Positions 472-37,560 of a stretch of 64,000 bases of DNA are shown in pieces. The first letter of the stretch is position 1. Every line of letters begins with the position of its first letter. Made by a program: the position numbers and the translations under genes. The notes under the pieces were generated by a model. The model was not told where the DNA came from. It saw only the letters and a list, made by a program, of their open reading frames with translations, and searched no databases. Location of the stretch: positions 68,891,383 to 68,955,382 of the forward strand of contig JARDVH010000059.1 of the NCBI GenBank assembly GCA_030324005.1. The letters run 5' to 3'. The DNA comes from Negaprion brevirostris (lineage: Eukaryota).

Positions 472-658
472 ACTAAGAAGTCTGACAACACCAGGTTTAA
501 GACCAACCGATTTATTTGATAGTAAACTCACAAGCTTTCGAGGTTCCCCTCTTCGNNNNNNNNNNNNNNNNNNNNNNNNNNNNNNNNNNNNNNNNNNNNN
601 NNNNNNNNNNNNNNNNNNNNNNNNNNNNNNNNNNNNNNNNNNNNNNNNNNNNNNNTCA
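472..658 (-). mobile_element. Penelope-like element 3' end with hammerhead-like motif, interrupted by a 100-N gap
   Basis: Reverse complement (cgaagaggggaacctcgaaagcttgtgag...cctggtgttgtcagacttcttagt) matches the 3' end of the 16.56-18.09 kb element. Flanked by a 13-bp direct repeat tgaca(t/g)tttagtg at 459-471 and 659-671. Confidence 0.8.
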
Positions 659-2376
659 TGACAGTTTAGTGAACCAGATTCTAATGGTAGAGCTTTCATA
701 GTTATAGCCCACATATTTTATACATTATTAAATATAATTTCACAACAGGATTTTGAACTAAAGAACTCCAGATTGCTAGTCTAGCATTGTAACTACTATC
801 CTATTAACAATAGTTAAATACTAAGAACAAGATCATAGATTTGTGTCACAGGTGTGCAAGAGAAGTCTTTGTTGTTGGTCTCTTTGTTGCAGTGCCACTA
901 TTTGATGTTGCATCATATGCCTGCAGAAAAATGTCTCCACATGCAAAACAGCTAAGAAATATGGAACAAGGGCTTAGTAATGACATGTCTCAAATTCCAA
1001 ACAACTGCACCTGGTGGAAAAACAGAAAGATGTATATTGGCAAATCTTCCACTAACGTTGGAAATAACACAAACAGATGGTTGCCAATGCTGAGGTATTG
1101 AAATGCTTAAAGGGCATGGTACATAATATTAGTGGCAGGTACAATGATGGAGTTGATCTAAAGTACAATGAGTTCTTACATTTTGCCTTGGCTGCTGATC
1201 ACAAGCGCTGAAGTTAAACAATCATTTTGCGCTAATAGGTAATGTTTACAGACAAGAATTTTAATTTTTTTACATATTTTCTCAATTTTTAGTTACTTGT
1301 CCCCTCATTAGGACCTGGCAGGAGTAACACTCAGCATCTCTGTTAGTTGTAGGAAACACATTGGACACATCCACAAATACACATCCTTATCCCCTATTTT
1401 TTCTGACGGAGTACCTTGCCTTCTTCCTGGCCATCTGCCATGGAGAATTAACAAACTAAAAAAATCTGTCAATCTGCTGGTGATGCCAAATTAATATAAT
1501 GTACGATTAGTACTGAAAAGCGGTATCATATCACTTTTTCACAAAATATTTCTATGATGGGATAAGCCATGAGACATTGTACCATGCTTCTACATTTCTA
1601 GAAATTTCTGCTGCTTCCCAAATGCTGACATAATGAAAATTCATGCAGATGCTTTAGGAATACCTTTACCAAGCCTGTGCTATCACAGCAAAAAAGCTGC
1701 AAAAACCTTCTAGAATGGTAATTATGATCCCTGTGTTTTGATGCATATCAGAATCAGAAAGTTATTCCATCACTTTCAGACTCATTATAATTGAAAACCA
1801 TTACCATTATTCATTTTATAAATGCAATAACTTATTGAAATCTGTCCCAGTAATTAGGATTAAATGATACATCTTACTTATTAAGCTGCATCTAATTGCA
1901 TGGGATGAAGTAGAATTTTATGGTAGCTGTTAATTTTCTGCTAGTAATAACTGATCACAGTGGCTATGGTAGGATAATGTCCTGGATAATCTAGCAAAGT
2001 AATTTTGATTGCAGTGACAAGGTGAATTCACTAAATACTTCCACTGATTTTTCTTAGCGTACAAAAACAATGCAAATAATCACCAGAATTCTTTTCTTCT
2101 CATTAAATGCACACAGCAAATTTAAAAATGAAGGGTATTTGCTAATTAGCCATGCAACATGATGAATACCATAGACATTGAAGATATAAGTTGACCTTTG
2201 AACCTCATAAAATCCCTCCAAATATGGGCCTAAACTTATATGCTGAGTATTAAAGTGAAACGTCAGCATGGTTACCATTTTGAACTGCCATTGGCATCCA
2301 ACGTGAAGCATGCACATGTCTTAAACTTCTGCGCATCTTTACAACACAGCCCTATCACCTGCTTGAATCTTTGCAC

Positions 2377-2414
2377 AGCAAGAAGTCTCACAACACCAGG
2401 TTAAATCCATACCA
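2377..2414 (-). mobile_element. Ultra-short (~38 bp) 5'-truncated Penelope-like insertion
   Basis: aagaagtctcacaacaccaggttaaatcca is the terminal sequence of the PLE family. Imperfect TSD tgaatctttgca / tgaacttttgca at 2364-2375 and 2415-2426. Confidence 0.65.
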
Positions 2415-3849
2415 TGAACTTTTGCATGCAGTTATAAGATGCTAAGTTAAATATGCATTGTGGGTGTGAAATGCAGGCTGATGACTAATGCAAGTAAAGC
2501 ATACCATGGCTGAAAAGGGGATGGGGGGGGTTGGTGTCAACTAATATACTGGGTATATGGAAAAGCATGATTTTGGGACTGTAAAAATTGAATTGCCTTA
2601 TAGACTGGATCAACTTACATATTACAATTTACAGTAATTTTCCTCGCAGGATGACCATAGATCATCATTTATAAGTTATCCTTTCAGCCTCACATATTTA
2701 CTGAAAATCATGGCGGGTGTTGACTTTTGCCCCATATAATGGATATTGGGCACAATGTTGTGTAAACATATTGGAATTCAGCGAGGAAGGAGTCTTTTGT
2801 GAATCAGCACAGATACAGCTACTTGCTTTAAAAGCCAAAATATGGAATATACTTTAGTTAATGTTAAGTTTTATCTTTAAAAGAGGCAAATATTTTGGTA
2901 TAAATCAGCCTTTGAAAACAGCTCACATTTTCTAGGTAAGAATCCGGGGGAGGAAGTCAGCTATTGTTGAATTTAACTTACAAATTGTGCAGCAAAAGCT
3001 CTTACCTGGCTGCTCAATGTCTCACTTTCATTTGGTACATAGCTTTTTAAATACTTTCTTCCAAACATTGTTGAAAACAACATAAATTGGAAAGCAACGT
3101 TGCTATTGTCGCATTTTCTAATTACCTTCTAAATAATGTTTCCTTCATCCAAGCTTTTAAATTGCTGACAGTGTGCAATGGATTCAAACTTGGGCAGTAT
3201 TAAGGATAGAATACATTTGAGTTTTCCCAGGAAGTTGTTGCAGAAAAAGAAAATGTTGAACATACAAAAGGTTTGAAAGATTGAGAAATGAAGAGAGAGA
3301 AGCGATGGAACATACAAAAAGGAGAGACCTTCAACACTAGACTAATAGGGGTTAGGTTACATATAGGTAACAGATAGACAGCAAATTATCTTGAGAGATC
3401 CTTAGGGTACATACCTTGGGTGACCCCTGACTTTGCCCACTCTTTATGATCAGGGGTATGAGCATAAGTCTGGAGGGGGCCATGCAATTAATACCACATT
3501 GCCTCAAAATTTTGCTACTAGACTTGTCATAATGCTACTGGCCTAAAGAACTGGTGGAAAAAAAAAATTGTTTAGTTTTTGTACTTCATTTGATCACATG
3601 CATCCTTGTGACTAGAGTTATGGGGGTTGCAGATGTGAGAATGATATTTTAATGCCACTCCTCCATTTGCAGGCATTGCTTCAGAGGGAGCTATAACATT
3701 GTCAGGAATTCTGGTGGGTGATGTTTTTCTTCCTGTTTTGTCTTCCTTTAATATCGTTTGGGAGGTGTCGGCTGTTTATCCTGTAGAATGTCTCCACACC
3801 CACTGCCCCACCACCCCCCACCCTCTCCACGTTTGCCACCCCACCAAGA

Positions 3850-4122
3850 CACCCCTAGCACAAAGCAGCAGATACATTGGAACACCTCCACCTGCAAGTT
3901 ACCCTCCAAGCCACCCACCATCCTGACTTGGAAATGTATTGCCGTTCCTTCGCAGTTGCTGGGTCAAAATCCTGGGATTCTCTTGCTAAAGGCATTGTGG
4001 ATCAACCCACAGCACATGGACTGCAACAATTCAAGAAGGCAGCTTGCCACCACCTTCTCAAGGGCAGCTAGGAATGGGCAATAAATGCTGGCCAGCCATG
4101 TCCCATGAATGAATAAAAAAAA
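3850..4122 (+). mobile_element. CR1-group LINE 3' end (A-tailed family)
   Basis: ORF2 C-terminal relic (SFAVAGSKSWDSL...QQFKKAACHHLLKG), then gggcaataaatgctggcc and tgaatgaataaaaaaa tail. Confidence 0.75.
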
Positions 4123-4724
4123 TTGAATGAGGTAGAAACCCAACATCAGGCACTCCTGAGTAGCTTCCACACCTGCCGAATGCAGGCCATACCTGGAAAT
4201 GCCCAAATAACTCCTTCTTCAACCCCAATAATGCAACATGATTTAAATTGATTCAATCGACTTCCTACTAATAGCTATTTTTAGCTTGCAAACTGATTTA
4301 AGCCCATTTTAAATAATGTATTATGGATTGATATTACTTAATGAACATTAACAGCTTTTGAATGACATTAAATCGATGAAAACACTCTAATAATATACTA
4401 TAATCAGCTCTGCCCTCCCCTTTATTCTGTTTCTGCAGGTTCACTAGATTTCTAGCATCTTAAAATGTGACTTGTCTATCTGTGCTCAGAATGTGATAGA
4501 TATAAGTAAATGGGGAACTATCAAAGCGATCACAAAATACATGAGGCAGATATTGCATTCACTCTGCCAATCACCTTCCTCCTATACAGTGGAGATGATG
4601 AGTAAATTATTGTCTTGACATATTTTGCCATTATTGAGGCCTATCCCTTCTCCTGCTGTGTCTTTTGATAAGATGTTATGATGTTTGAAAATCTTATTCC
4701 TTGGTTATTCTCATTCAATGACAA

Positions 4725-5140
4725 CTTTCTGGCAGCTGGTCTGGAGACTTGTGCATCTTTAGTCAATTTGTTCTTGTACAGCTACAACGTGGGCATCTAC
4801 CCAACAACGTGGAAAATTGCCTACAAAAAGCAGAACAAATCCAACCCGGCTAATTATCAGACTATTCTTAATCATCAGCAAAGTGATGGAAGGTGTTGCC
4901 GACAGTATTATTAAGTGGCACTTTCTCAGAAATTACCTGCTCAGCTTTAGTTCAAACATGGACAAAAGAGTCAACTCAAGAGGTGAGAATGTCTGCCAGA
5001 CAGCATTTGACCGAGTGTGGCAACAAGGAGACCCAGTAGAATTGAAGCCAATGGGAAATCAGATTGGCATCATATCTTACACAAAAGTTGTGATTGTTTG
5101 AGTTCAATTATTTCAGTCCCAGGCCATCACAGCAGGTGAT
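4725..5140 (+). mobile_element. CR1-group LINE reverse transcriptase fragment (decayed)
   Basis: Motifs GIYPTTWKIA, KSNPANY, IISKVMEG and AFDRVW across frameshifts. Confidence 0.75.
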
Positions 5141-5145
5141 TATAC

Positions 5146-5340
5146 AAAGAACAAAGAACAGCCCAGCACGGGAAACAGGCCCTTCGGCCCAACGAGCCCA
5201 TGCCGCCGCATCCTCCTACCTACCCTACCCTGTGTGTATGTGAGTGGATCCCCTAATTTAGCCAGATTCAGGGGAGAATAGTGTCAATTTGGTACACCAA
5301 TCAGNNNNNNNNNNNNNNNNNNNNNNNNNNNNNNNNCCCA
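5146..5340 (-). mobile_element. Young CR1-tail element 3' end, (TTCTTTG)n tail
   Basis: acaaagaacaaagaaca-cagcacgggaaacaggcccttcggcccaacgagcc, shared with copies at 23966 and 28110. Confidence 0.7.
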
Positions 5341-6202
5341 TTCAAATTTTCCCCATCCCTCCTATACAGTTGCCCTTCTCTCACAAATACTTCCCAGTGG
5401 TCTACAAAAGTAATACCTCCCAGTGGTCTACAAAAGTAAGATTATGTACCATTATGTGCCACTCAGAACCAGGAGTGCTCTTTGTTGAATAGAAAAGCCT
5501 CCATAGGTCTGAACCTAATCCTTAAAGTCAGCAAAGGCAATGAACAAGAAGAAGAAAACTTCCAAAACTCTTCAAATGCAGAAAGGGGCATGTGGACATG
5601 AGACTGCACCTGATTCAGACGTAAATTGAGTGAGGTGTTGTGTTTGGTTTTAATGGGAATCATGGTGCAGAGGGGAAAAAAGGTGCTTCTTTTTCTACTT
5701 TCTTTCAGTCGTCAGTGGCTGATAAGTTTCCTTCCTTGTCTCCAAGCTGAGTGCAATTTTTTATTATTTTATCTGTCAAGTAAATATTAACTAATTGTCC
5801 AATTAAATGAATAAGGTTAGAGAGAAATAATAGGCTGCTGGTGTGCCATGACTGCTGGACTTGGGAATGTGTGGGATACACTGCAATACCAGACAAACAT
5901 ATCTGGAGAACGTGTCTGCAGCTAAGGCAACTTCAGCTTCGAGTTGCTGAGCTGGAGTCTGAGTTGTGGACTTTGTGAAACAGAGTTACCGAGACACTTT
6001 TTTCTTGGAGGCAGTCACTGCCCTTAGGTTAGGCAGAACCCAGCTATGATCAGTGGTCAGTGGAGTCTTATTGTGAGTCAGGCAGGTAAGGGGAACCAGC
6101 AAGTAGTGGTGGCGGAGCCTCAGTCCCTGACTTTGTCCAACAAATACAAAGTACTTGCTTCCTGCATGGATGGGGAAGATTGACTGTGGTACTATGCTGA
6201 AA

Positions 6203-6552
6203 GGGGTGGCACAGTAGCACAGTGATTAGCACTGCTGCCTCACAGCTCCAGGGACCTGGGTTCGATTCCTGGCTTGGATCACTGTTTATGTGGAGTTCTC
6301 ACATTCTCCCTGTGTCTACATGGTACTCCAGTTTCCTCCCACAGTCCAAAGATGTGTCAGTTACGTGCATCGGCCATTCTAAATTGTCTGTTAGTGTCAC
6401 AGGATGTGTAGGTTAGAGGGATTAGTGGGGTAAATGTGTGGAATTATGGGGATAGGGCCTCGGTGGGATTGTGGTGGGTGCAGATGCGATGGGCTGAATG
6501 GCCGTCTTCTGCTCTGTATGGATTCTATGATTCTATGAATTCTATGATTCTA
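6203..6552 (+). mobile_element. tRNA-derived V-SINE (HE1-like)
   Basis: A-box-like tggcacagtagcacagtg, B box ggttcgattcc, V-domain tccagtttcctcccacagtccaaagatgtg, LINE-type tail with (gattctat)n. Confidence 0.9.
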
Positions 6553-6769
6553 AGTGGGGAAGCGAAGAGGAATATGCTAGTGATAGTATAGTGACAGTAT
6601 AGTCAGAAGGACAGGTACTGTTCTCAACGGTCACAAGCCCGATTCTAGATAGATTGGTGTGGGAGGAATGGGCTTCAGTTCAAGGGATACTGGCATTAGT
6701 ACTGGGGAGGGAAGGAACTGTATCGCTGGGATGGCCTGACCTGAACCATGCTGGGATCTGGCAAACCAT

Positions 6770-6895
6770 GGCTGGAATTTTACTGGCACGCCCACCCAAT
6801 TCCAGGGGCGGGTGAGGATCGGAGAATAGCGTTCTCCGTTGGCCTCGGGCGGGATCGTATGGAGCTTGGGTGGACATGCCAATAAAATTCCAACC
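6770..6895. mobile_element. PIF/Harbinger-type MITE (126 bp)
   Basis: ~29-bp TIRs ggctggaattttactggcacgcccaccca / tgggtggacatgccaataaaattccaacc. 3-bp TSD CAT at 6767-6769 and 6896-6898. Confidence 0.85.
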
Positions 6896-9367: not shown

Positions 9368-9390
9368 GTCTCTCTCTCTCTCTCTCTCTC
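9368..9390. repeat. (TC)n microsatellite
   Basis: Direct reading of the sequence. Confidence 0.95.
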
Positions 9391-9902
9391 AATTTGTATC
9401 ATGTGTTTATGTGGTTTAACATAGAATTTCAAATTATACATATGTAAGAACATGAAAATGTTTGGAATAAGAAGCACATTTGCGTCACCAAGCTTGCCCA
9501 TTCTAACAAATTTGGTATAATGTGTCAACCTGATGTTGTCAGACTTTTTACCCAGTTGTCAGTTAGCAGAACATTTATTTCTGTTGTGTTTTCCTGTTGC
9601 TAGAGGTTTGAACTAATTATACTTTTGTACTCAAGCATATAACTGAGCATCATCAAGTGTATTTCTTATAGCTCTCTATGTGGTCAGTGGACATGATACC
9701 TTATTGCTCAGCACCTGACTGCAGAAAAGCACTAGATAAGGCACACGACATGTACATTTTCACAACAATTAGTTCTTCTTTCTCAATGAATAATACAATA
9801 ATCAAACAGGTTCTGTATTATAAGTCTATGGAAGGGATTTTCCCACATACTTCAGGCACGAAAGAGTCTCTGAGATGGCTAAGATGTAGTCTTATGCTTA
9901 TT

Positions 9903-10208
9903 CAGAACCAGGGTCATAGTCTGAGGATTTAGGGTAGACCATTTAGGACAGAGATGAGGAGACATTTTTTCACCCAAAGAGTGGTGACCCTGTGGAATTC
10001 AATACCACAGGGAGTAGTTGATGCCAAAACATTGAATGTATTCAACAGGTGGCTGGATATAGCATTTGGAACGAATGGGATCAAAGATTATGGGGAGAAA
10101 ACAGGATTAGGCTATTGAGTTGGATGATCAGCCATGATTGTGATAAATGGCAGAGTAGGCTTGGAGGCCAAATGGCCCCCTCCTGCTCCTATCTCCTATG
10201 TTTCTATG
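9903..10208 (+). mobile_element. CR1 LINE 3' end
   Basis: RGHS...FRTEMRRHFFTQRVVTLWNS relic followed by ggccaaatggccccctcctgctcctat-ctatg tail. Confidence 0.85.
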
Positions 10209-16559: not shown

Positions 16560-18088
16560 TCCTTCATACACTTCATCCTGGATCACAATGTCTTCACCCT
16601 CAACAGTTCTTCAGCCAGACACATGGAACAGCCATGGGGACTAAAATCGCACCTCAGTTTTCCAACATCTTCATGCACAAGAACAAAGACCACTTCACCG
16701 CTCAGGACCTTTAACCAATGCTATATACGAGATACATCGATGACATTTTCTTCCTTTGGACTCACAGCGAACAATCACTGAAGCAACTATATGGTGACAT
16801 CAACAAGTTCCAAACCACAATCAGACACACCATGGACTACTCTCCAGAATTGGTTGCATTATTGAATACACGCATCTCGATCAAGGACGACCACTTCAGC
16901 ACTTCACTGTACCGCAAGCCCACAGATAACCTCACAATGTTCCACTTCTCCAGCTTCCACCCTAAAAACGTTAAAGAAGCCATTCCCTATGGACAAGCCC
17001 TCCATATACACAGGATCTGCTCAGATGAGGAGGATAGCAACAGTTATCTACTGATGCTGAAAGATGCCCACATATGAACAGGATATGGCGCTTGACTCAT
17101 CAATCGACAGTTCTGACATGCCACAGCAAAAACCACACCAACCTCCTTAGAAGACAAACACGGGACATGGTGAACAGGTCATCCGGTACTCCGCTGGAGC
17201 AGAGAAGCTACAACATCTTCTCTGGAGCCTTCAACGTGTCATTGATGAAGATGAATATCTCGCCAAGGCCATCCCCACACCCCCACTACTTGCCTTCAAA
17301 CAACTGCACAACCTCAAACAGTCCACTGTCCGCGACAAACTACCCAGCCTTCAGGAGAACAGTGACCACGACATCACACAACCCTGCCACAGCAACCTCT
17401 GCAGGACGTGCCGGATCATTGACATGGATGCCATCATCTCACGTGAGAACACCATCCACCAGGTACATGGTACATACTCTTGTGACTCAGCCAACGTTGT
17501 CTACGCTGCAGGAAAGGATGTCCCGAGGCATGGTACATTGGGGAGACCATACAGATGTTACGACAATGGATGAATGGACACCGCTCGTCAATCATCAGGC
17601 AGAAGTGTTCTCTTTCTGTCAGGGAATGCTTCAGCAGTCACGGGCATTCAGCCTCTGATCTTTGGGTAAGCATTCTCCAAGGCAGCCTTCAAGACACACA
17701 ACAATGCAGAATCGCTGAGCAGAAACTGATAGCCAAGTTCTGCACACATGAAGACGGCCTCAACCGAGATCTTGGATTCATGTCACATTATCTGTAACCC
17801 CCACGACTTGCTTGGGCTTGCAAAATCTTACTAACTGTCCTGTCTTGAGACAATTCACACCTCGTTAACCTGAACTTAACCATACTCACATTGTTTATCC
17901 CTGTAAAGACTTGATTACTTGTTAAGACTTGCATTCCAATCATTATCTTGTAAATTGAGCCTGTGAGTGTATATGCCCTGTTTGTGAACCCAATCCTCTG
18001 CTCACTTGATGAAAGGACAGCGTTCTGAAAGCTTGTGCTAGCAAATAAACTTGTTGGACTTTAACCTGGTGTTGTGAGACATCTTACT
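16560..18088 (+). mobile_element. Penelope-like retroelement, 5'-truncated (RT + GIY-YIG endonuclease + 3' terminal region), frameshifted
   Basis: GTAMGTKIAPQFSNIFM, RYIDDIFFLW, TSLYRKPTD...SSFHP...AIPYGQALHIHRICS, CRKGCPEAWYIGET, RIAEQKLIAKF...GLN. Ends cctggtgttgtgagacatcttact. Confidence 0.92.
18001..18037 (+). ncRNA. Minimal type-I hammerhead ribozyme-like motif (C3>U variant)
   Basis: cac-TTGATGA-a-AGGAC(agc)GTTCT-GAAA-gcTT-gtg. Stem I cac/gtg, stem II paired, palindromic AGCT in place of stem III. Confidence 0.75.
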
Positions 18089-19790
18089 CCACTTCAAGGG
18101 GAACACCAACTTTTCTAACCTAATCTCCTGGAACTGTTCTGATAATTCTTCTCTGCGTCATGCAATAGTCCTCACCTCCTTCCCAAAGTGTGGTGACAAC
18201 AACTGGAACCCTGTGTTCTCATTGTATCCTAACCACAGCTTTATAAGTGTTCAACACAACTTTTTTGTTTTTGTACTCAATAAAGCCTAAAATCACATAT
18301 GTTTTGTTAAGCATTCTTTCACTATGTCCTTCAGCCATCAAAGATGGTTGCAGTACATGAGCCTCCAGGCTCCTCTGTCTGTGCACAATATTTAGAACTG
18401 TGCCATTAAGTCTATGTTACCTGTTCTCATCCCTCCAGCCATAAATGCATTGCTTCACCCTTCTATCTATTAATTTCCACTTTCCTGCCTGATCTGCTAG
18501 CCTATCTATGCCTTATTAAAGTTACTTTGCATCAAAATCACAGTATGCCACACCTATATGCTTGGTGACAATTTGAAATCTTATGCCGTATCCCAAAATC
18601 CAAGACATTTATATGTAAAAAAATTATTTCAAGCACTAAACCTTGGAGATGGACTTCTGCCTACCATCATCCAGTGTGCAAAGTAGCCGTTTACTGTGAC
18701 TCAATTTTTTTTAAACCTGAGGCCAATTTTTTATCCAGGGTGACACTGATCATCCTATGCCATGAGCCTCAATTTTATTAACAAGCCTTTTATGTAGTAC
18801 TTTGTCAAATATTTTCTTAAAATCTATCTAGACAACTTCCATTGAATTCCTTTCATCAACCTTCATTATAAAATTAAATTAGATTAGTGAAGCATAATTT
18901 GCTTTTTAGAAATCCATGCTGGCTCTCTTTAATCAACTCAATCTTCTTCAAATGCTTGTTGATTTTTTCCTTATTGCTTCTAAAACCTTACCCAGCACTG
19001 ATGTTAAACTAACTGGCCTGTAGTTGTTTGCACTGATCCTTTCTTGAATACGTGTGTCACTTTCCAAACCTCTAAAACAGCCCCTCTATCTTGGAAAATT
19101 ATGGCAAGTCCTTTCACTATCCTCATCTTCACTCTCTTTAGCAACCCAAGCCATCAAGACCAAGTGACTTATCCACTCAAAGCATAGCCAGCCTTACCAG
19201 TGCCTCCTGCCTCTTAATTTTCATTCCACCTATTGTCCCAGCCTTTGCCACTCCTAATAACATTTTGTCAGCATTCTCTTCATTAGTAAATACCAATAGG
19301 AAATACTTGTTAAATTTTCTATGCCTCTAAACACATAGCACCCTTGTTGTTTCAATTTGGACCACTCTGCTTCTTATTACCTACTTCCTATCAATCACAT
19401 TTCAACGGTAAGTTCTATTTTATGTTGACTGCCATTTTATTCTCATACTGACCAGGGTTTCACTTGAAGAATTTGCCTGATATTCATCACATAATCTCTT
19501 CTTTTGTTTCATCATGTTCTCTATCTCTCTGGTCATCCAAGAGCCATAGCTATGGTTTCTTTACCTTACACTCTTGTTGGAATGCACCCCAGTCTATATG
19601 TGAAGCATATCTGCCTACATGATTACTCATTGTTCTTTTTCAGGTCCTCTCACTCTTTGGTTTGATCCCGTCTTATTCCATTGAAATTAGCCCTCTTCCA
19701 ATAACTTAGATGTTCTACTTTAAATGATTCCTTATTTTTCACTGTTACTGATCAAACTTTATAATATGATCACTCTTATCCAAATATTCT
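18089..19790 (-). mobile_element. Old CR1 LINE ORF2 relic; continues at ~16525-16560 on the other side of the Penelope insertion
   Basis: Minus-strand RT motifs near 18780-18840 (VYxDF-K-FDKVLHKRL), GFLKSK-CFT near 18900, and YRPVSLTSV near 19000. Confidence 0.75.
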
Positions 19791-19804
19791 CCCACAGAGA
19801 CTTG

Positions 19805-20665: not shown

Positions 20666-21190
20666 GGGATGGATTTTAAACTCCTCTCCCCTGGCAGGAT
20701 TGAAGACAGGGGCCTGTGAAAACTTTAGTGACTAGCCTTTTCATCACCTATCCCTGACCTGTCTGAAATTGACTCACCTGATGAAGGGGAAAAGCCCCAA
20801 AAGATAGTCACTGTTGGACTTTAACCTGGTGTTGTCAGACTTGTTACTCTGTCTGAAATCGTACAGGGGACGGGGAAACATTGGGTGGTCTGCCTTTAAA
20901 ACTATTGATTAAGGGCCTCGTACCATCACCACTGATACTTTACACATGGCAGGGGGGAGGCCTATTCCCTGATCCCGGATTCCTCAATGTGGGACTACCT
21001 GGAAACCCACCAGTAAACAGAATCCTGGCTAGAGGTGGTGGGACTACAGAGTTGCCAGCTATCCAATTGGCCAACAATTCTTTAGGGTGGGACTTCTTCC
21101 TGAGAATGGGCAGAAGTTTCAACTTAAAACAATTAACATTGCTCCCAGCGCTAACCTGCGATGTAGCCATCACAATCATGGGAGGTTACC
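20666..21190. mobile_element. Harbinger-type non-autonomous DNA element carrying a mini-Penelope insertion
   Basis: Starts gggatggattttaaactcc. Similar to 19805-20435. Confidence 0.5.
20770..20848 (+). mobile_element. 79-bp Penelope-derived mini-element: hammerhead motif plus terminal sequence
   Basis: ctcac-CTGATGA-a-GGGG(aaaag)CCCC-aaaag, then gttggactttaacctggtgttgtcagacttgttact. Perfect 11-bp TSD ctgtctgaaat at 20759-20769 and 20849-20859. Confidence 0.88.
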
Positions 21191-23965: not shown

Positions 23966-24506
23966 AAGAACAAAGAACAAAGAACAAAGAACAACACAGC
24001 ACGGGAAACAGGCCCTTCGGCCCAACGAGCCTGCGCCGCCGTCCCATTGTCANNNNNNNNNNNNNNNNNNNNNNNNNNNNNNNNNNNNNNNNNNNNNNNN
24101 NNNNNNNNNNNNNNNNNNNNNNNNNNNNNNNNNNNNNNNNNNNNNNNNNNNNNNNNNNNNNNNNNNNNNNNNNNNNNNNNNNNNNNNNNNNNNNNNNNNN
24201 NNNNNNNNNNNNNNNNNNNNNNNNNNNNNNNNNNNNNNNNNNNNNNNNNNNNNNNNNNNNNNNNNNNNNNNNNNNNNNNNNNNNNNNNNNNNNNNNNNNN
24301 NNNNNNNNNNNNNNNNNNNNNNNNNNNNNNNNNNNNNNNNNNNNNNNNNNNNNNNNNNNNNNNNNNNNNNNNNNNNNNNNNNNNNNNNNNNNNNNNNNNN
24401 NNNNNNNNNNNNNNNNNNNNNNNNNNNNNNNNNNNNNNNNNNNNNNNNNNNNNNNNNNNNNNNNNNNNNNNNNNNNNNNNNNNNNNNNNNNNNNNNNNNN
24501 NNNNNN
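23966..24506 (-). mobile_element. Young CR1-tail element (mostly gap) inserted in a Harbinger-type element (~23810-24873)
   Basis: (aagaaca)n tail plus cagcacgggaaacaggcccttcggcccaacgagcc. Host element ends taagattgcccc. Confidence 0.7.
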
Positions 24507-27838: not shown

Positions 27839-30195
27839 AGATGGGATTTTCTGCTCCAGAGACTGAGTATGGCAACAGGCAGGGAAAGCAGCACATTTCC
27901 TGAAGGTCGGAATGATGGGTTTATGCTCCAGATCTTCTGCTTTTCGGCCCATTAGCTATGCACGAGTAGGGAGAACATCAGTTCTCCTGGCAGAGCAGTC
28001 TGCGATTTGTCTGCCCCAATGTGACTTCATTGGATCACCTTTCCTGGCACCATATTTAAACAGCAGCTGCACACATCATTCACCGTCTGCAGCCCGGGAC
28101 TGGTCAAAGAACAAAGAACAAAGAACAACCCAGCACGGGAAACAGGCCCTTCGGCTCAACGAGCCCGCGCCGCCATCACCCTACACCTATTCTACCCTGC
28201 GTGTCTACTAATGGAACCCCTTCCTTAGCCAAANNNNNNNNNNNNNNNNNNNNNNNNNNNNNNNNNNNNNNNNNNNNNNNNNNNNNNNNNNNNNNNNNNN
28301 NNNNNNNNNNNNNNNNNNNNNNNNNNNNNNNNNCCCAGTACTGAGCCCTGCGGCACACCACTGGTCACTGGCCTCCAGCCCGAAAAGGTCCCCTCCACAA
28401 CTACCCTCTGTCAAAGTGACCGATGGCCCCAAGTGCCCCCAAGATCAGCAATAATGCACTGATGTGTGGGGGAGACACCACCAGCTCTGTCCTGTGCCTC
28501 AGTGGTGGGAGAATGAGATCCACTAACCTCACCACTTGGCCTTGGGAGGAGGTATCCAGCATGATCAGCGCTAATTCAGCATGGAAAAGGTCCGCCATCC
28601 AGTGTAGGCAAAGGATGAACGATCTCATCTGCTATGCCATGGTAAGTCAACCTTCTCCTCACTCTCAATTCTCAGTCTCACAATCCCATCAAACATTGAC
28701 AAGATTACATTCCATAGGAATCTCACATTATCCACACAAGGACACCATCAAGGATTCTCTCACACACACTTTGAAATATTCATCTCCCCTCACATCCTGT
28801 GTAGCTCAGGTCCTCAGCCCTAAAACAGGCACATTCAGATGGGAGGCATCCTTACTGTCTGCCTTGTTATCCGCCCTGTGCACGGTCTGTCTGTCCAACT
28901 GTCTTTATGCAGGAGAAGCTCACCCACAACAAAAGGGGAGATCTAAGACAGGACGGTAGCCTTACTGGTATCTGTTATATAGTTAAATAGTTACATGATT
29001 GCTTTCAGAGAAGAGCCTTGCTAAGTGGGGCATCAATGACCTCCTGTAGACATTTGTGAGCAGATGTTTGAAAAACTCCATGGTGCTCCCCAGTGGAACC
29101 CTGTAATGAACCACTCACAAAGAAGTTCAAAACTGCAGCCACTTTTAGAGCCATTGGTAAGGGGTGGCCTCTCAGTCCATCTGCCGTCAAATCCTCCTGG
29201 ACGATGTGACAAATGGGAGATACCACATCACCTGGCATATGAAGCTGTTGGTGACACTGTCTCTCACACATCTGGCGGTATGAGAAGCATTTTCTGTACG
29301 CCCTGTCTTGCCAAATGCCTCTGATCAGTGGCTCTGTCAGCCTCAGCTTTTGGGTGGTGAGGAGGCCCCGTAGACCCTTGTTCATCAGGGTGAGGCGACA
29401 GGCCCTTCTTCTCCTTTTTAGTTACCTAATTGCCAGGATGAAAGCAACATTGGCTGCTCCATTTATGTTTCTCTCGTGCTCATCCCTGCAGAAACATTGA
29501 ACAGAAAAATAATTGAGCATAAGCCTACAAAGGCTACCCTCCAATTGCTTTCTCGGAACTGACAATGGAGCCAAGGGCTTACTTTTATCCCCAGTGTAGG
29601 GCCTTCAGAATCACCTGAGGTGCACCCAGCACCCCAACACCCAGGCCCAACCCAGCGAAGGCCACTCCAATGACATGGGAGCTTGGATCTGTAGGAGTTC
29701 TGGTAGGCGCTAGAAGCCTCAGACAGGGCACATACTCAGATTGTATCCTTTGGTTTACACAGCAGCTCCTACTTGCAGTAATGGGTGGGATTTTGCTGGA
29801 GGCAGGTGGTTATGGTGATGCTGATGAGGGGGAGGTGGGGGGTGGGGGGAGGTAAGTGAGGACTCCAATATCCAAACCTGCCTGCTGCAAAGTTTAAAGG
29901 TCCCATGGGCATTAGGCATCTGCATTTTGGCCCCGGCTCCTCTCAGTTGGTTCCTCCGATGCTCGGGATTTCCCGTGAGAAGGGTGATGATTGTACAATG
30001 GGCCCAATTGGAATTATATTCCCACATCAATGCACGACATGCGTTAAGGCATCAAATTCCCTAAGTTGAGCATTGATTGCTCCTAAGCTGTGCCTTTCTC
30101 TCCATTAGGAAGATCAGAACTAAGTTGGGTGTATCTTCAGCCAGCCCGCAAGTGCAGTGATTGGTTTCTCACACAAACCCTGAGAACCTTGTCCT
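27839..30195. mobile_element. Internally deleted two-gene Harbinger transposon: Myb/SANT gene (+) convergent with a transposase (-)
   Basis: Plus strand 28423-28641 APKISNNAL...WEEVSSMISANSAWKRSAIQCRQRMNDL, with a GT-AG intron at 28642-28912 and exon 2 EKLTHNKR. Minus strand 29005-29385 SYRQMCERQC...GHPLPMALKVAAVLNFFVSGSLQGSTG. Outer limits approximate. Confidence 0.8.
28110..28409 (-). mobile_element. Young CR1 LINE, 5'-truncated in RT, with a gap
   Basis: 3' tail at the left, SGVPQGSVLG RT motif at the right. TSD gtcaaag at 28103-28109 and 28410-28416. Confidence 0.8.
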
Positions 30196-31108: not shown

Positions 31109-31693
31109 AGGACATGATTTTCCCTGCCTGCTGTGCTGCTCGAGTTGCGCAGCAGGTTGGGAAATGGCAGCGGGAGGGAAAAAAATGGTATCCGTGACTG
31201 GTGTCTGGCCAGTTGTGATCTTCCTGGTCCATTTTTTTGACGTAATCAGCCTCACACTGGGAAACTGGGCAAGGCTGATTATAATATACAGAAGCTGCTC
31301 TGCATCTCTTTGGCAAGTCCTGGGCTTAATTGTCTGGGCTCACTAAAGTTTCCGGCCTTGCCATTGATGGGACCATATGTGATCCCCGCTGGTGGGACCA
31401 GAGGGGAGGGGGTGGGGGGGGTGGGGTTGGTGATCAGGACGCCAGCAATTGGGAGACTAGCAATGGGGGCGGAGGGAATGAGCTTGTTCTCCCAGTATAC
31501 TGGGAGATTGGCGCATACACACTAGCCCACTCTGCAGTCCGGTGTCAGCCTCTTGGGTGGGATTAGGCTGTGCTCCCTCTGCCACCTACCGGTGTAAATA
31601 CCCTGATGGCCTCTGTGATGCACAGAGTGCTGTAAATTCATTCATCTAAACTCACCCAAAAAACGGGCAGAAAAACTTTTGTATTCCTGCCCT
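31109..31693. mobile_element. Harbinger-type non-autonomous element
   Basis: ggacatgattttccc ... tattcctgccc termini. Confidence 0.5.
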
Positions 31694-32338
31694 TTGGACA
31701 TTTAGTTTATTTTTTGGGAAAATTGAGCCCTCTAGAAAGTCTGCAATTTTGCAATTCTAAATGGCAATATTTCAGTGAAATGTGAAACAATTGCTGCCAG
31801 AAATGTTTTCATCAGCTGCTCCTATCTTTTGCCATTTAAATCCCAAACCTGACCATTACCATCACAGTTAATAATTCCATTACACAAACAAAACTCATCA
31901 GCGTGTACTAAAATGATTGGATAGATTACAAACTTCATTGTGATGATATAAGATTAGGATCCTTCCTGAGATCTATGCAATAAGCATGATTCCCAGTTTA
32001 AATGTCTTCTGGTACAATGAAAAGACCAGAGAAACCTGGGTTCTTCAGTCTTGAAAAAAGGTGGCTGAGGGGGTCTGCTGTCTCCAAGAACCAAAGTTTA
32101 CCTTCTAATCAGCCCATTTCCACATTCACACTTCTGTTCCAGTCTGGAATTGGGGTTGTATTTTGGGAGTTGCACTTTGTGAGCTGGAGAGCTCAATCCA
32201 GGCCTGTTTCAAAACTTTAGAGTAGATTAGATATTTAGTTGAAGAAAAGGAGAATGAAGTGATACAGAAACAGAAGCAGACGCATAAGATTATGACCTGC
32301 ACCCAATTATTGGCCAGAACTTTCCAGTTCTTCATACT

Positions 32339-32521
32339 GGCAGGATTTTCTGGTCCCACCGTCGATGGTGCACCTCCGCCGTGGGTTTCCCAGTGGTGTA
32401 GGGTGGAGTTAATGGAATATCCCATTGACAGTGGCGGGACCAGAAGATCCTGCCACCGACCAATGGTTTGCCACCTCCTGCTGGGAGAAATGCACTCTGG
32501 GGAGGCTAGAGAATCCTACTC
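32339..32521. mobile_element. Harbinger-type MITE
   Basis: ggcaggattttctggtcccacc ... gagaatcctact, with an internal inverted copy gggaccagaagatcctgcc. Confidence 0.65.
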
Positions 32522-32958
32522 CTTATCTAAAGGCCTGTTCCATGTTGTAATTTCTATAGTACTCAATGTCTCATCCTAACAGTAGAAACAAATTAAGAAT
32601 CACTGTATGAGGAATTGTTAGCCTGATCACACAATCACTTGCGTCCCTGTTGTCTGCCTTTGAGTTCCACCACACAGTCTGAAGAAACAGGGATCTTTAA
32701 CTTTCTCAATATGAGAGAAAGATTATTTTTGAAGCAAGCAAACCCATATACCATAGTTAGTCTGTAGAAGTATAAATGTAATTCCTCGCACATTAGGCGT
32801 AGACTAAAATCATGAATAGGTCACTGACAATGGGACGGCGGCGCGGGCTCGTTGGGCCNNNNNNNNNNNNNNNNNNNNNNNNNNNNNNNNNNNNNNNNNN
32901 NNNNNNNNNNNNNNNNNNNNNNNNNNNNNNNNNNNNNNNNNNNNNNNNNNNNNNNNNN

Positions 32959-34271
32959 CGCAGTGCTGCCTCTCCAGCCACCCCCCACAGCCTAATCACA
33001 GCACCCACAACAATTCCCAGACCAGCCCTGACCCTGCCCCCCCCACACTGGCCCAGAGTGCCCCAATGCACAGCCCATCTCTCCAGCAGTGGCGATCCCC
33101 CCTCACCCTGGCAGCCCACCCCATGGAGGCAGACCGCCCTGGTAGACCACCCCCCCTTCCCCTGCCCACCTCAATCGCTGCCCTACCTCCATCCCAGATC
33201 GATCCTGTCTGCAGAGTGGCAGCGGATCTCCCCCCATCCCCACTGATCACCCCTAGGCTTTGCCCACAATAGGCCCTGCCCATTTGGCACTGTTCGTTGC
33301 ACAATAGGAAGTGCCAAGATGCCCCCTGGATATGGGCAGCTCTGGAGGCACAGGCTGGCACTGCCAGGGTGCCCATGCCCAGGGGCACCATCCCCTGCCA
33401 CTCAACACCCTGGAAAGTCCCGATTGCCTCCCCCTTTCATTTCAGCGGGATCTCTCTTTGGTTCCCCAAACGTGGGGAGCTGGTCTAAACCCCACTGGAA
33501 TGAAGTATTCCTGGCGGGATGGGAGATTGAATAGGGACCTGAAAGTTCCCAATAATCACACTTAAAACATATTAAAAATACATTTGAAACAGATTCAAAT
33601 TACTTACCTGCTTTCCCACCCGTTTCCAGCATGATCTGACCGATGACAACCTTATTTGTTCTCACTGGATGTTGAGGAGAGATGTGATAAAAGTCTACAA
33701 GATTATGAGGGGCATGGACAGAGGGGATAGTCAGAAGCTTTTTCCCAGGGTGGAAGAATCAATTACTAGGGGGCATAGGTTTAAGGTGTGAGGGGCAAGA
33801 TTTAAAGGAGATGCACAAGGCAGATTTTTTTTACAGAGGACGGTGGGTGCCTGGAACTCATTACCGGAGGAGGTAGTGGAAGCGGATATGGTAATGACTT
33901 TTAAGGGGTGTTTTGATAAGCATGTGAATAGGATGGGAATAGAGGAATATGGTCCCCGGAAGGGTTGGGTTCTTGTTAAGTCGGGCAGCATGGTCAGTGC
34001 AGGCTTGGAGGGCCAAAGGGCCTGTTCTTATGCTGTAATTTTCCTTGTTCTTTGATTGTTTGCCGGCTCTGCAAGATGCGCATGTGTTCCCAAGTGCTGT
34101 GTGCAAATATCGGCGGCGCACATCTCCCACTGAAACCCGTCTGAAAAATTGTGGGTTGCGATGGGAGAATCGCGGCCAAGGATTCAAGTGAGCACCAGGT
34201 TTAAATGTATATATTCTACATATTATTTGTAACTTTTTGGCGAAGTGAAAGCACTTCCAGGGAATCTCCCA
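32959..34271. mobile_element. GC-rich Harbinger-type non-autonomous element split by a CR1 insertion
   Basis: C-rich body with ggcactgcc motifs also seen at 43221-43900. Resumes after 34056 and ends gggaatctccc. Confidence 0.55.
33650..34055 (+). mobile_element. CR1 LINE 3' end
   Basis: LRRDVIKVYKIMRGMDR...TRGHRFKV...VGAWNSLPEEVVEA, then ggagggccaaagggcctgttc tail. Confidence 0.9.
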
Positions 34272-34297
34272 ACCTATTTTCCCAACTCCATTTTCAA

Positions 34298-34985
34298 ATT
34301 TGCTGATCTCAAACAATAGCAAGACAGAGTACAGGAAAGAGATAGAGAATAGGGTGAACTGGTGCGATGACTATAATCTCTCCCTCAATGTCAGCAAAAT
34401 GAAGGAGATAGTCATCAACTTCAGGAAGCATAGTGCAGGACATGCCCCTGTCTACGTCAATGGGGAGGAAGCAGAAATAGTTGAAAGCTTCAAGTTTCTC
34501 GGTGTCCAGATCACCAACACCCTGTCATGGTCCCTCCACAGTGACACTATAGTTAAGAAAGCCTACCAATGCCCCTACTATCTCAGGAATTTAAGGAAAT
34601 TTGGTACATCCGCTACGACTCTTACCAATTATTGCAAATGCAGCGTAGAAAACATCCTTTCTGGATGTATCACAGCTTGGTATGGTTCCTGCTCTGACCG
34701 AAACCGCAAGAAAATGCAAAGAGTTGTCTGTCATGCAAACCAGCCTCCCTTCCACTGATTCCACCTACACTTCTCGCTGTCTCAGAAAAGCACCCAACAC
34801 AATCAAGGACCCCATGCATCCCAGGCATTCCCTCTTCCACCAACTTTCATCGGGAAAAAGATACTATATTCTGAGACCAATCAACTCAAGAACAGCTTCT
34901 TCCTTGCTGCCGTCAGACTTTTGAACAGACCTACCTAACATTAAGTTGATCTTTCACTGCACCCTAAATATAACATTTTGCACCT
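34298..34985 (+). mobile_element. Rex1/Babar-clade LINE, 5'-truncated
   Basis: EYRKEIENRVNWCDDYNLSLNVSKMKEIVINFRK...FKFLGVQI...KKAYQ..YYLRNLRKF...GCITAWYG, IKDPMHPRHSLF. Confidence 0.9.
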
Positions 34986-34989
34986 TCTT

Positions 34990-35075
34990 CAAAGAGGGAG
35001 TCCCCTCAAAAGCTTGTGAGTTTACTAGCAAATAAATCGGTTGGACTAAAACCTGGTGTTGTCATACTTTTTACT
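34990..35075 (+). mobile_element. Penelope-like 3' terminal fragment with partial hammerhead (5' core truncated)
   Basis: GAGGG(agtc)CCCTC-aaaagcttgtgag...cctggtgttgtcatactttttact. Same subfamily as 472-658. Confidence 0.8.
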
Positions 35076-35199
35076 GTTGTTGCATCTCCAGCATTGTGTT
35101 GGTGGCCACTCACAGAGGCTCATTATCTAACCGGTATTCAGCATGTGGCTGGTCTTCAGCAACCCAACAAGTGCCGGAGACCTGAGCTGTCCCTGGCTC

Positions 35200-36410
35200 T
35201 TAATTGCTGTGGACGTATGTCAGAATGGTGTCCTCCAGTAGGTGCTACTAAGCCTAATCTAGATCTAAGGAATGAAGGTGTGTTTCTCTGGGCAGGTGAG
35301 TGGAGTAACAGTTCTTCCTTGGTAGCTTCCTGAAGGTAAGGCTTGTGCTGGCTCTCCTTGCCTACCTAGATCTGTTGGTGTCCATAAGAGAGAAAAGAGA
35401 GTTTTACTTCATGAGCAGATAGATTACAAGATTGTATGTCACTCACCATAAATGTCAGGATGCGGTGAACTCATGAAGGCGTCATTCATATAAGGTTACT
35501 GGGAAGAGCCAACTTGCCTTCCCCACAGGGAGTGATCTCTGTTCTCCCTTGCCAGTTCAGCGGCATCCTCCGTGAACCATGTGAAGAGTATGAGGCCAGT
35601 GTCCCTCCCTTGGACAGGGATGTTTCCCATCTATTGTGAGCCAGCTTGCCCTGGGTGAATGTGATGGGAAGGGATGCCCCCTGTGTGTGGTGAGCTCTCC
35701 CTAGAAAGAGCTAAGGAAGAAGTGTGATTAGCTTGAGAGATGGTGGTGATGTGAACTGGTGAACCAATCACTGGTGATATGTATCCCCCCCCAAATGGTT
35801 GTGTGAGATCCCTGAAGAGAGTAGCCTTTTGAGTACATGTTGCTATAATGAGAGTTTGATACTGGAAGGAGTTGAAGGATGGCTTACCCTGGTGGAGTGA
35901 TTGAGATTTTTCATCCTCTTCCTGCACTGGATTGTATTGCAGGTGTGCTCACCAGCCATGATGACCTCCTTTGCCCTGGCATCCCAAGCCATAGAGGTGA
36001 GGCTGGTTTGCTTCTTGGAGCCATCTATGAGGTATAGCTCATACTTATGCTGTCACACTTCACAAATCAAAGTCTTGAGGGTGTAGGGACAGAAGAAAGG
36101 TGCAGCCTTCTCCATCTGGTTACTAGCTGTCTTTGTGGGTGTCCTGGAAGCAACTGGGCCACATGATGTGTGCATGCTCTGGTGGTAATTAAATATGGTG
36201 TCTGGACCTTTGACCCTGTCAGGTAATGGTGGGATGGACAAATCAGTTCCCAACCCACCAGGTGATCCAGAGAGCTAGTCATTTGTGTATAATTAATGAG
36301 TTTCCAAGCACGGAAACAAGCGCAATTTCTCACCATTCGAATCAGCAGAAGATGTACTGCAAAACCCACATCCCATAGCGTTTAGCTTCAAAAACAGAAA
36401 ATACCGCACA
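35200..36410 (-). mobile_element. Harbinger Myb/SANT gene relic with putative introns
   Basis: Minus-strand MEKAAPFFCPYTLKTLICEV and TIQCRKRMKNL. GT donors (cttacc/ctcacc on +) near 35883 and 35442. Confidence 0.7.
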
Positions 36411-36757
36411 AAATGTGAATAAACTATACTCCTGATTTAACCCTAAAGAGAGTTTGCTGTGATATTGTTATAAAGTTTACCTCACACGTCTGCATAGAAA
36501 CCAACAGCGAGAAAACACAGATGCTCTGTTTTGTCTCCCTCCCCATTTCTATTTAATTTGTAGAGGGATGTTAGTTCACATTGCTCCACTTTGAGTATTT
36601 GACTCATCTACCCCTTCTAGTTTGCACAGTCTGTTCATGTAAAGAATGCAGCAGGTAACATGTTCTTTGATCTATGTTACTACTTCTTTAGTGTCAGCTT
36701 CAAGGATATTTGAAAGAGTAGCAAGGTAGCAGTATAACCCTGGACCTTTGCCTAACA

Positions 36758-37560
36758 TGTAGAGATGCCGGCATTGGACTGGGGTAAACACGGTAAGAAG
36801 TCTCACAACACCAGGTTAGGGTCCAACCAGTTTAAGCTTTCGGAAACGGTGTTCCTTTGTCAGGTGTGTGGAAAATTCTGATCAGAGAAGAGCATACAAA
36901 GTCACATACAGTTTACAGAATACTGATTAGAATGCAAGTCTTTACAGCTAACCTGCTATTCAAGTCTTAAATATGCATACAATGTGAGTGGAGATAGCAT
37001 TAGCATAGGTTAAAGAGATGTGTATTATCTCCAGACAGGACAGTAAGTGAGGTTTTACAAGCCCAGGCAAGTCATGGGGGTGCAACATGAACCCTAGATC
37101 TCAGTTGAGGCCATGTTCATGTGTGCGGAACTCGGCTATCAGTCTCTGCTCAGCGATACTGCGCTGTCGTGTGTCGTGAAGGCCACCTTGGAGAACACTT
37201 ACCCGAAGATCAGAGACCGAATGCCCGTGACCGCTGAAGTGTTCGCTAACAGGAAGGGAATCTTCAAACAACCGCACAATCTCAAACAGCAAACCCAGCC
37301 TTCAGGAGAACAGTGACCACAACACCACACAACCCTGCCACAGCAACCTCTACAAGACATGCCGGATCATCGACATGGATGACATCATCACATGTGAGAA
37401 TACCATCCACCAGGTACACAGTACATACTCTTGCAACTCGGCCAACGTTGTCTACCTAATACGCTGCAGGAAAGGATGTCCTGAGGCATGGTACATTGGG
37501 GAGACCATGAAGATGCTACGACAATGGATGAATGAACATCGCTCGATAATCACCAGGCAA
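36758..37560 (-). mobile_element. Penelope-like element with 5' inversion: 36758-37260 minus, 37261-37560 plus
   Basis: Minus part: SLPVSEHFSGHGH...IAEQRLIAEFRTHEHGLN plus the 3' terminus. Plus part: NVVYLIRCRKGCPEAWYIGET...RQWMNEHRSII. The two parts are adjacent in the 16.56-kb copy. Confidence 0.9.
36834..36868 (-). ncRNA. Degenerate minimal hammerhead-like motif
   Basis: Minus strand cacac-CTGACAA-a-GGAA(caccgt)TTCC-GAAAgctt. G8>A change and 3' strand of stem I deleted. Confidence 0.65.

What the first reader, a model, noticed from the sequence alone, without database searches (positions are those of the whole stretch)
472..36868. Minimal hammerhead ribozyme with co-varying stem II at the 3' end of a shark Penelope-like family (5 copies)
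Seen: five loci (527-555 -, 18001-18037 +, 20773-20810 +, 34990-35020 +, 36834-36868 -) share the layout (ct)cac-CUGANGA-A-stem II-GAAA-GCUU-gug(ag). Stem II differs in every copy yet always pairs: GAGG/CCTC, AGGAC/GTTCT, GGGG/CCCC, GAGGG/CCCTC, GGAA/TTCC. Stem III is reduced to the palindrome AGCU. Established: Penelope-like elements carry minimal type-I hammerheads thought to cleave as dimers. Inference: the structure was selected in at least two active subfamilies. Every visible copy has a core lesion or a truncated/hidden core, and several lesions fit CpG decay (GAAA>AAAA, CUGACGA>CUGACAA). The class is known; these shark subfamilies may be undescribed.
Basis: partly seen in the sequence, partly recalled or inferred. 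Interest (0 to 1): 0.7.

Follow-up and report, generated by a model that had tools for sequence, protein, structure and literature searches.

The report
Decayed Penelope hammerheads, known kind
These five motifs are broken copies of a small hammerhead RNA motif that sits near the end of a very abundant Penelope-type jumping gene; the kind was described in 2014, the motif was likely kept working only in the active parent elements, and most copies were likely made from RNA that had not been cut.

Summary
Real, and a new member of a known class. The five loci are 3' ends (pseudo-LTRs) of a Penelope-like retrotransposon with a Neptune-type CX4CX2C linker. The genome holds 24,480 matches to the strict core pattern (controls 0 and 2). 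Stem II covaries between parent subfamilies: pair 2 is A-U 52, G-C 42, G·U 5, A·C 1 of 100 listed. G at position 17, which blocks cleavage, occurs in 525 of 24,480. The anatomy matches the minimal hammerheads of Cervera and De la Peña 2014. Extra lead: 5' ends of short copies avoid the cut site (6 of 169, p=0.5) and pile up 0-9 nt upstream of the core, 31-32 nt behind a TATA-like box. Templates were therefore likely uncut RNAs starting just before the ribozyme. The scan noted this lead before in other genomes, and the family elsewhere in this one. Cleavage itself was not testable.

The parts
472..555 (-). 3' pLTR stub: second half of the hammerhead (stem II GAGG/CCTC, GAAA, AGCU, GUG), AATAAA and terminal motif; CUGA box hidden by the N run from 556
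2377..2409 (-).
9527..9551 (+).
16715..17077 (+). Broken reverse-transcriptase fragment of the element (YIDD at 16733-16744); homologous RT probably starts about 150 nt earlier, 5' edge not mapped
   Evidence: relatives L164 and L166 hit Pfam RVT_1; the window fragment itself had no Pfam hit
17385..17411 (+). CX4CX2C linker between RT and endonuclease (Neptune/Nematis mark)
   Evidence: PMC8557442 introduction
17490..17760 (+). Frameshifted GIY-YIG endonuclease remnant (VVY...YIGE), approximate limits
17968..17975 (+). TATA-like box, 32 nt upstream of the inferred start site at 18000 (promoter role inferred)
18000..18037 (+). Minimal hammerhead, C3>U lesion at 18006; stem II 18014-18026; GAAA 18027-18030; predicted cut between 18034 and 18035
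18044..18088 (+). AATAAA (18044-18049) and GU-rich terminal motif (18063-18088), the main 3' end of the family
20772..20848 (+). Complete 77-nt stub starting exactly at the inferred start-site A; stem II GGGG/CCCC; G12>A; internal deletion after the core; 11-bp target-site duplication at 20759-20769 and 20849-20859
34990..35075 (+). Stub cut inside the first core box; stem II GAGGG/CCCTC; G8>A and G12>A; lies behind a LINE-like RT remnant
36756..37260 (-). Endonuclease end, 3' UTR, hammerhead (C3 at 36863; G8>A; deletion after GCUU), terminal motif and the ~38-nt tail ending at the ORF start codon
37262..37559 (+). Inverted 5' part of the same insertion (linker CX4CX2C and GIY-YIG start)

Best explanation
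The five motifs are decayed copies of a minimal type-I hammerhead in the pseudo-LTR of a very abundant Penelope-like retrotransposon family, likely of the Neptune clade, whose fold was likely kept by selection in the active parent elements but not in these insertions. Shown: the pLTR reads TATA-like box, 31-32 nt, initiator-like A, hammerhead, AATAAA, GU-rich terminal motif, ~38-nt tail, start codon; copies end at the terminal motif or at the tail; 5' ends avoid the cut site and pile up just upstream of the core. Inferred: transcription starts about 6 nt before C3 and ends behind the second pLTR, so one mRNA carries a hammerhead at each end. The reverse transcriptase starts internally at the terminal motif or tail end (as shown in vitro for the anole element) and mostly copies uncut RNA to its 5' end, giving 100-140-nt stubs that often fold back. 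The ribozyme has no stem III of its own and is predicted to cut only when two AGCU palindromes pair, probably with help from the element's protein, as a slow processing step that insertion does not require.
For: 24,480 strict core matches, controls 0 and 2. Pair 2: A-U 52, G-C 42, G·U 5, A·C 1 of the first 100 of 2,991 (hand count; about 23 A·C expected if independent). Pair 4: G-C 67, A-U 21, A·C 8, G·U 4 of the first 100 of 7,070 (hand count; about 22 A·C expected). Pair 3: A-U 94, G·U 34, G-C 25, A·C 4 of 163. G17 in 525 of 24,480. Extra A after A9 in 134, G10.1 in 136, palindrome letters in 131-138 of 142. RT, CX4CX2C linker and GIY-YIG upstream. Tail runs into the ORF start. 3' ends: 149 of 283 within 9 nt of the terminal motif, 108 at tail nt 33-40. 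CpG decay: all 33 G12>A copies keep C11.1, none of 49 with U11.1 has it; G8>A in 15 of 41 with C7 against 3 of 78 with U7. 5' ends: 0.065 per nt at 0-9 nt upstream of C3 against 0.013 inside the motif (p about 1e-13; blind sample alone p=5e-6). Box-to-A spacing 31-32 nt in 75 of 82 long copies. Same anatomy in PMC4209133; tail and uncut template in PMC11167929.
Against: No cleavage or RNA-end data were obtainable. Covariation rests on few independent events (at least three, all A/G with U/C transitions); shuffles ignore kinship, and the tree of 57 long copies did not resolve stem types into clades (8 of 54 branches well supported). A GGGA/CCCC subfamily has an A·C fourth pair. The terminal motif and AATAAA are as constant as the core, so constancy alone proves nothing. 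The commonest box is TTTATATG (32 of 82), not a canonical TATA (14 of 82). The 0-9 nt zone was chosen after seeing the first sample; in the blind sample it is not significantly above the zone further upstream (p=0.15), and both arms of fold-backs were counted. Two internal jumps among 12 ORF-start copies join within 1-2 nt of the cut site, so some cut templates may exist. Folding of 58 core-intact copies gives only weak stems (median pair probability 0.20 and 0.29).
Confidence: 0.82

Rival explanations
1. The ribozyme is essential: the two hammerheads of one mRNA cut as a cis dimer, the ends are joined, and the circle is the template for all long copies; stubs are by-products of uncut RNA.
For: Proposed in PMC4209133. 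Copies run across the cut site without a break, as a circle would allow. Only 20 of 208 copies reach 38 nt or more upstream of C3, and these need a circle, a read-through tandem or a template jump. Same-strand pairs exist (342 nt apart in L169; 152 nt apart in L291, with an N run between).
Against: Hammerhead mutants did not reduce insertion in vitro for the anole element, and no reads ended at its cut site (PMC11167929). Read-through tandems or jumps explain long copies equally well. No circle junction can be told from contigs, since the joined sequence equals the pLTR.
Confidence: 0.2
2. The pile-up of 5' ends is a reverse-transcriptase roadblock or fold-back hotspot at the hammerhead's front edge, not a transcription start.
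For: Most of the ends listed there belong to fold-back insertions. The peak is broad (0-16 nt). The box is often non-canonical. No RNA 5'-end data.
Against: A roadblock should act on entering the structure, yet the rate inside the motif equals the rate before it (0.0126 against 0.0111 per nt). The mode, 6 nt upstream of C3, falls on the initiator-like A. Spacer sequence differs between subfamilies while its length holds.
Confidence: 0.25
3. The motif is a protein-binding or vestigial hairpin; stem II pairing arose by DNA-level palindrome correction or template switching, without catalysis.
For: The family makes fold-backs readily. Published minimal hammerheads cleave poorly, and the authors do not exclude other functions.
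Against: G·U is tolerated far more than A·C at pair 3 (34 against 4), which fits RNA pairing. Positions 7 and 17 vary as the hammerhead rules allow while no subfamily carries G17. The anole motif cleaves, with C3/G8 rescue.
Confidence: 0.08
4. One of the five window copies is a host-co-opted, working ribozyme.
For: The 18-kb insertion may be shared with two related organisms: single contigs run from 28 nt inside the element into the flank at about 97% identity, just under the tool's 31-nt bridging rule.
Against: Four of five cores carry lesions at invariant positions and the fifth is half hidden. Copies sit on long terminal branches (median 0.081 changes per site), and at most 55 of 142 keep an intact core.
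Confidence: 0.02

Closest known systems
Minimal hammerheads (min-HHR) in pLTRs of metazoan Penelope-like elements (Cervera and De la Peña 2014, PMC4209133)
   Same: CUGANGA plus one extra base, G10.1-C11.1, GAAA, palindromic 15.2/16.2, short stem I, no stem III, many sequence families per genome, mostly solitary truncated copies. Its alignment lists a turtle motif with the same GAAA-GCUU and a coral Neptune motif with a similar stem II.
   Different: Stem II is 4-5 bp rather than 7-8 bp as in Schistosoma. At least 24,480 strict matches against about 4,000 in coelacanth and 9,000 in Xenopus (different descriptors). No cartilaginous fish in its Table S1 or Figure S3.
Poseidon element PAc of Anolis (Frangieh et al. 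2024, PMC11167929)
   Same: Two fixed 3' ends separated by a 30-40-nt tail, read as internal RT start sites; hammerhead in the pLTR; uncut RNA as the main template.
   Different: In PAc the ORF starts inside the hammerhead and RT starts 111-118 nt into the ORF. Here the hammerhead lies about 110-120 nt before the start codon, the tail ends at the start codon, and the protein has the Cys linker.
Neptune clade of endonuclease-bearing PLEs (PMC8557442; PMC3846280)
   Same: RT, CX2-5CxxC linker, C-terminal GIY-YIG with two Cys between the motifs, inverted pLTRs, tail. A TATA box plus TCACT initiator in a pLTR was already noted for a rotifer Penelope (PMC3846280, passage).
   Different: Clade placement here rests on the linker only, not on a tree with reference elements. 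D. virilis Penelope has a TATA-less internal promoter and a 75-bp intron (PMC2377424, passages); no intron was found here.
Non-LTR retrozymes (bioRxiv 10.64898/2026.07.22.740005)
   Same: PLE-derived, type-I hammerheads, reported from one chondrichthyan genome.
   Different: Retrozymes are tandem arrays; the window copies are solitary stubs or truncated coding copies, and Tandem Repeats Finder shows no array at them.

Membership tests
PLE minimal hammerhead | Core boxes CUGANGA and GAAA with U16.1 and H17 | tested here: met
   Family level: 24,480 matches, G17 2.1%. Not met in four window copies; half hidden in the fifth.
PLE minimal hammerhead | One extra base between A9 and 10.1 | tested here: met
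   A in 134 of 142
PLE minimal hammerhead | Conserved G10.1-C11.1 pair | tested here: met
   G-C 102 and G·U 53 (CpG decay) of 163
PLE minimal hammerhead | Stem II with compensatory changes between families | tested here: met
   Pairs 2, 3 and 4; few independent events; one subfamily with A·C at pair 4
PLE minimal hammerhead | Short stem I and palindrome in place of stem III | tested here: met
   CAC/GUG pairs C-G 125, A-U 148, C-G 144 of 163; AGCU in the great majority
PLE minimal hammerhead | Located in the pLTR of a PLE | tested here: met
   Downstream of RT and GIY-YIG, upstream of tail and start codon
PLE minimal hammerhead | Self-cleavage as dimer or with protein help | not testable with these tools
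   No raw RNA reads were offered
Endonuclease-bearing PLE | RT followed by GIY-YIG endonuclease with Cys pair between the motifs | tested here: met
   RVT_1 E=5e-10 and 7e-8 in two relatives; NVVYLIRCRKxCPEAWYIGE-type motif; atlas neighbours with GIY-YIG on 18% of members
Endonuclease-bearing PLE | Direct or inverted pLTRs and optional 30-40-nt tail | tested here: met
Neptune clade | CX2-5CxxC linker between RT and EN | tested here: met
   CX4CX2C, 34 matches in the fetched loci and window; shared with Nematis per PMC8557442
Neptune clade | RT phylogeny grouping with reference Neptune elements | not tested
   No reference Neptune proteins were on hand
Non-LTR retrozyme | Tandem array with a hammerhead in each unit | tested here: not met
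   No array at the five loci; only isolated same-strand pairs in other loci
Canonical type-I hammerhead (Rfam families) | Match to an Rfam hammerhead model | tested here: not met
   No hammerhead hit at E<=5 in the window; the window copies are broken and minimal

The most novel reading that the evidence does not exclude
The pLTR is a retrovirus-like U3-R-U5 unit in which the hammerhead fills the R region: capped RNA starts six bases before the core, the stubs that litter this genome are integrated strong-stop cDNAs, and the two hammerheads at the ends of one mRNA pair through AGCU to cut and circularise it, which switches copying from stubs to long insertions. This would give PLE hammerheads a defined role and make it testable from RNA ends.
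Probability: 0.25. Interest if true: 0.62.

Novelty: new member of a known kind. Interest (0 to 1): 0.3.

Why it matters
The class is known, so the five copies are ordinary. The family is still useful: tens of thousands of core-intact copies in about ten subfamilies give unusually clean natural covariation for a minimal hammerhead, and the copy ends record which RNA was reverse-transcribed. They agree with the in vitro anole result that uncut RNA is the main template and point to one base as the likely transcription start. The function of PLE hammerheads is stated to be unclear in PMC8557442, and this family offers a direct test by RNA-end mapping.

Tried and rejected
Rfam scan: no hammerhead. 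Pfam on six window fragments: nothing significant for the PLE pieces. Pile-up of 5' ends at the cut site as a footprint of cleavage: not found (6 of 169 within 1 nt; p=0.50). Intron from the GU after the cut site to the CAG in the tail (67-75 nt, like the D. virilis intron): none of 25 genomic copies shortened there shows the precise joint, and no such joint among the 15 listed of 21 in four possibly-RNA contig sets; contigs cannot show absence and PLEs retain introns, so this is unsupported, not refuted. RNA runs: no RNA holder listed, only contigs. Tree of long copies to count compensatory events: unresolved, and my filter dropped the GAGG/CCTC subfamily (57 of 70 kept). Intact full-length element: none seen among 20 stretches fetched around RT hits with longer open frames; many are interrupted by N runs. 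Target-site duplications: found for 20772-20848 only, not for the 18-kb, 35-kb or 36.8-kb copies. Orthology of the 18-kb insertion: below the bridging rule. Repbase and Dfam could not be searched, so the family may already be catalogued there.
Full report
Observation. All five motifs are present at the stated places with the stated stem II arms. Each is followed by AATAAA (lost by deletion at 20.8 and 36.8 kb) and a shared ~25-nt terminal motif; two more terminal-only stubs lie at 2377-2409 and 9527-9551. None of the five shows a whole core: C3>U at 18006; G12>A plus loss of the 3' stem I strand at 20.8 kb; no CUGA, G8>A and G12>A at 35.0 kb; G8>A plus a deletion at 36.8 kb; and an N run over the first box at 556. 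Rfam finds no hammerhead in the window.

The element. Upstream of the 18-kb motif lie a broken RT (YIDD), a CX4CX2C linker and a frameshifted GIY-YIG domain; the 36.8-kb copy shares the 3' 800 nt with a 5' inversion. Relatives elsewhere in the genome hit Pfam RVT_1 (2 of 4 proteins) and show the linker and endonuclease motifs; the atlas places one among eukaryotic clusters with HTH_animal and GIY-YIG. The linker marks Neptune and Nematis (PMC8557442, introduction). Copies end at two places: 149 of 283 within 9 nt of the terminal motif and 108 at nt 33-40 of a tail. The tail ends at the start codon of the ORF. Many insertions are head-to-head fold-backs. These are the known marks of endonuclease-bearing PLEs (PMC3846280 passages; PMC11167929 parts 1-2 of 4).

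Abundance. The strict core pattern matches 11,399 times with U17 and 13,081 times with A, C or G17; reversed controls give 0 and 2. An exact 34-nt terminal pattern matches 14,794 times. Sixty evenly spaced 10-kb stretches held 34 termini in 494,758 readable bases (control 0), which scales to roughly 150,000-180,000 termini.

Covariation. From 307 termini in the loci then fetched, 186 had a parsable core; after removing 1 duplicate and 22 poor parses, 163 were counted. Pair 1 is G-C 102, G·U 53, A-U 2; pair 2 G-C 123, A-U 10; pair 3 A-U 94, G·U 34, G-C 25, A·C 4; pair 4 G-C 110, A-U 26, A·C 9, G·U 4. Two genome-wide patterns left one pair free. For pair 2, the first 100 of 2,991 matches were A-U 52, G-C 42, G·U 5, A·C 1 (counted by hand). 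For pair 4, the first 100 of 7,070 were G-C 67, A-U 21, A·C 8, G·U 4 (by hand). G17 occurs in 525 of 24,480, about the level of single mutation. Against: these counts reflect a few inherited events, all transitions; a GGGA/CCCC subfamily leaves pair 4 open; and a tree of 57 long copies did not resolve them.

Decay. Among 255 copies from sets not built on the core pattern (some also occur in those sets), 142 could be parsed and 113 were too short or too worn. Of the 142, 55 keep an intact core, an upper bound because the parse favours intact ones. G12>A occurs only when C11.1 is kept (33 of 33; 0 of 49 with U11.1), and G8>A in 15 of 41 copies with C7 against 3 of 78 with U7. Terminal branches have a median of 0.081 changes per site. 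The insertions decay neutrally; selection acted on the parents.

Where copies start. I mapped the 5' edge of 208 termini: 174 from the window and stretches around exact terminal matches, and 34 from the blind sample. Nineteen were cut off by N or locus ends, 20 ran 38 nt or more past C3, and 169 ends were placed. Six lie within 1 nt of the cut site against 37 in the 20 neighbouring positions (p=0.50). Forty-seven lie 0-9 nt upstream of C3: 0.065 ends per nt at risk, against 0.013 inside the motif and 0.017 at 17-37 nt. The blind sample repeats the contrast with the motif body (p=5e-6) but not significantly with the upstream zone (p=0.15); fold-back arms were counted separately. The mode, 6 nt before C3, is an A in an initiator-like context, 31-32 nt behind a TATA-like box in 75 of 82 long copies; the box is TTTATATG in 32 and TATATATG in 14. 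The window stub 20772-20848 starts on that A and has an 11-bp target-site duplication.

How it likely works. Shown: order of parts, two 3' ends, continuity across the cut site, pile-up before the core. From the literature: internal RT initiation at the tail, protein-assisted cleavage and uncut RNA as main template in the anole element; weak dimer cleavage of minimal motifs (PMC4209133 parts 1-2 of 4). Inferred: transcription starts at that A and ends behind the second pLTR; RT starting in the 5' pLTR runs to the RNA's 5' end and yields stubs; long copies need a tandem read-through, a jump or a circle; two AGCU palindromes supply stem III (duplex only -2.5 kcal/mol), so proximity or protein is needed. 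The promoter part I put at about 60%, an essential circle at about 20%.

Known or new. The supplement of PMC4209133 (file 2, parts 1-2 of 3; term search; file 1 not searchable) lists motifs of this anatomy from 40 animals, none a cartilaginous fish. A 2026 preprint reports retrozymes in one chondrichthyan (part 1 of 5 and passages; its supplements were not seen and may list this family). Searches for shark + Penelope + ribozyme (2 papers, one checked by passages) and hammerhead ribozyme + elasmobranch (0 papers) found no description; some searches were seen as listings and showed no title on 5' ends piling at a start site. A TATA box with a TCACT initiator in a pLTR is already in PMC3846280; D. 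virilis uses a TATA-less promoter (PMC2377424 passages). Hammerhead numbering, the H17 rule and the TATA/initiator spacing are recalled textbook knowledge. The scan's own notes record the same family and the same start-site lead in other genomes and fold-back copies in this one; I had reached the reading before seeing them, and they are not independent support.

Verdict. A real, well-supported new member of a known kind; the window copies are dead. Interest 0.3, with a testable lead on where the RNA starts.

Noticed in passing
L297-L308 (12 copies that run from the tail into the ORF): Measured against L300, 10 of the other 11 leave the ORF at nt 58-92, six of them at nt 73-81: a possible third, minor RT start region. 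In L297 and L307 the next piece begins within 1-2 nt of the hammerhead cut site; in L299 it begins at the inferred start site.
   Followed up: partly
L169:4040-4600 (-): Mini partial tandem: pLTR, tail, first ~43 codons of the ORF, jump to the 3' UTR, second pLTR; two hammerheads 342 nt apart.
   Followed up: partly
L291:2335-2487 (-): Two identical intact hammerheads 152 nt apart with an N run between them: a short tandem or an assembly duplication.
   Followed up: no
window 18035 and the other pLTRs: The bases after the cut site read GTGAGT in one subfamily (splice-donor-like) and the tail holds a CCCCAG acceptor-like site 67-75 nt later; no spliced copy was found.
   Followed up: yes
window 34249-34966 and 40453-41130: Two copies, about 80% alike, of a LINE-like RT remnant (weak RVT_1, E=0.024, in the first); the 35-kb stub sits behind the first.
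   Followed up: no
window 5138-5210, 23971-24043, 28105-28177; inverted arm 32825-32858: Another short repeat family with an (AAGAACA)n end, several next to N runs.
   Followed up: no
window 18062-18330: Single contigs of two other coded organisms carry 28 nt of the element end plus this flank at about 97% identity, a weak hint that the insertion is older than their split.
   Followed up: partly
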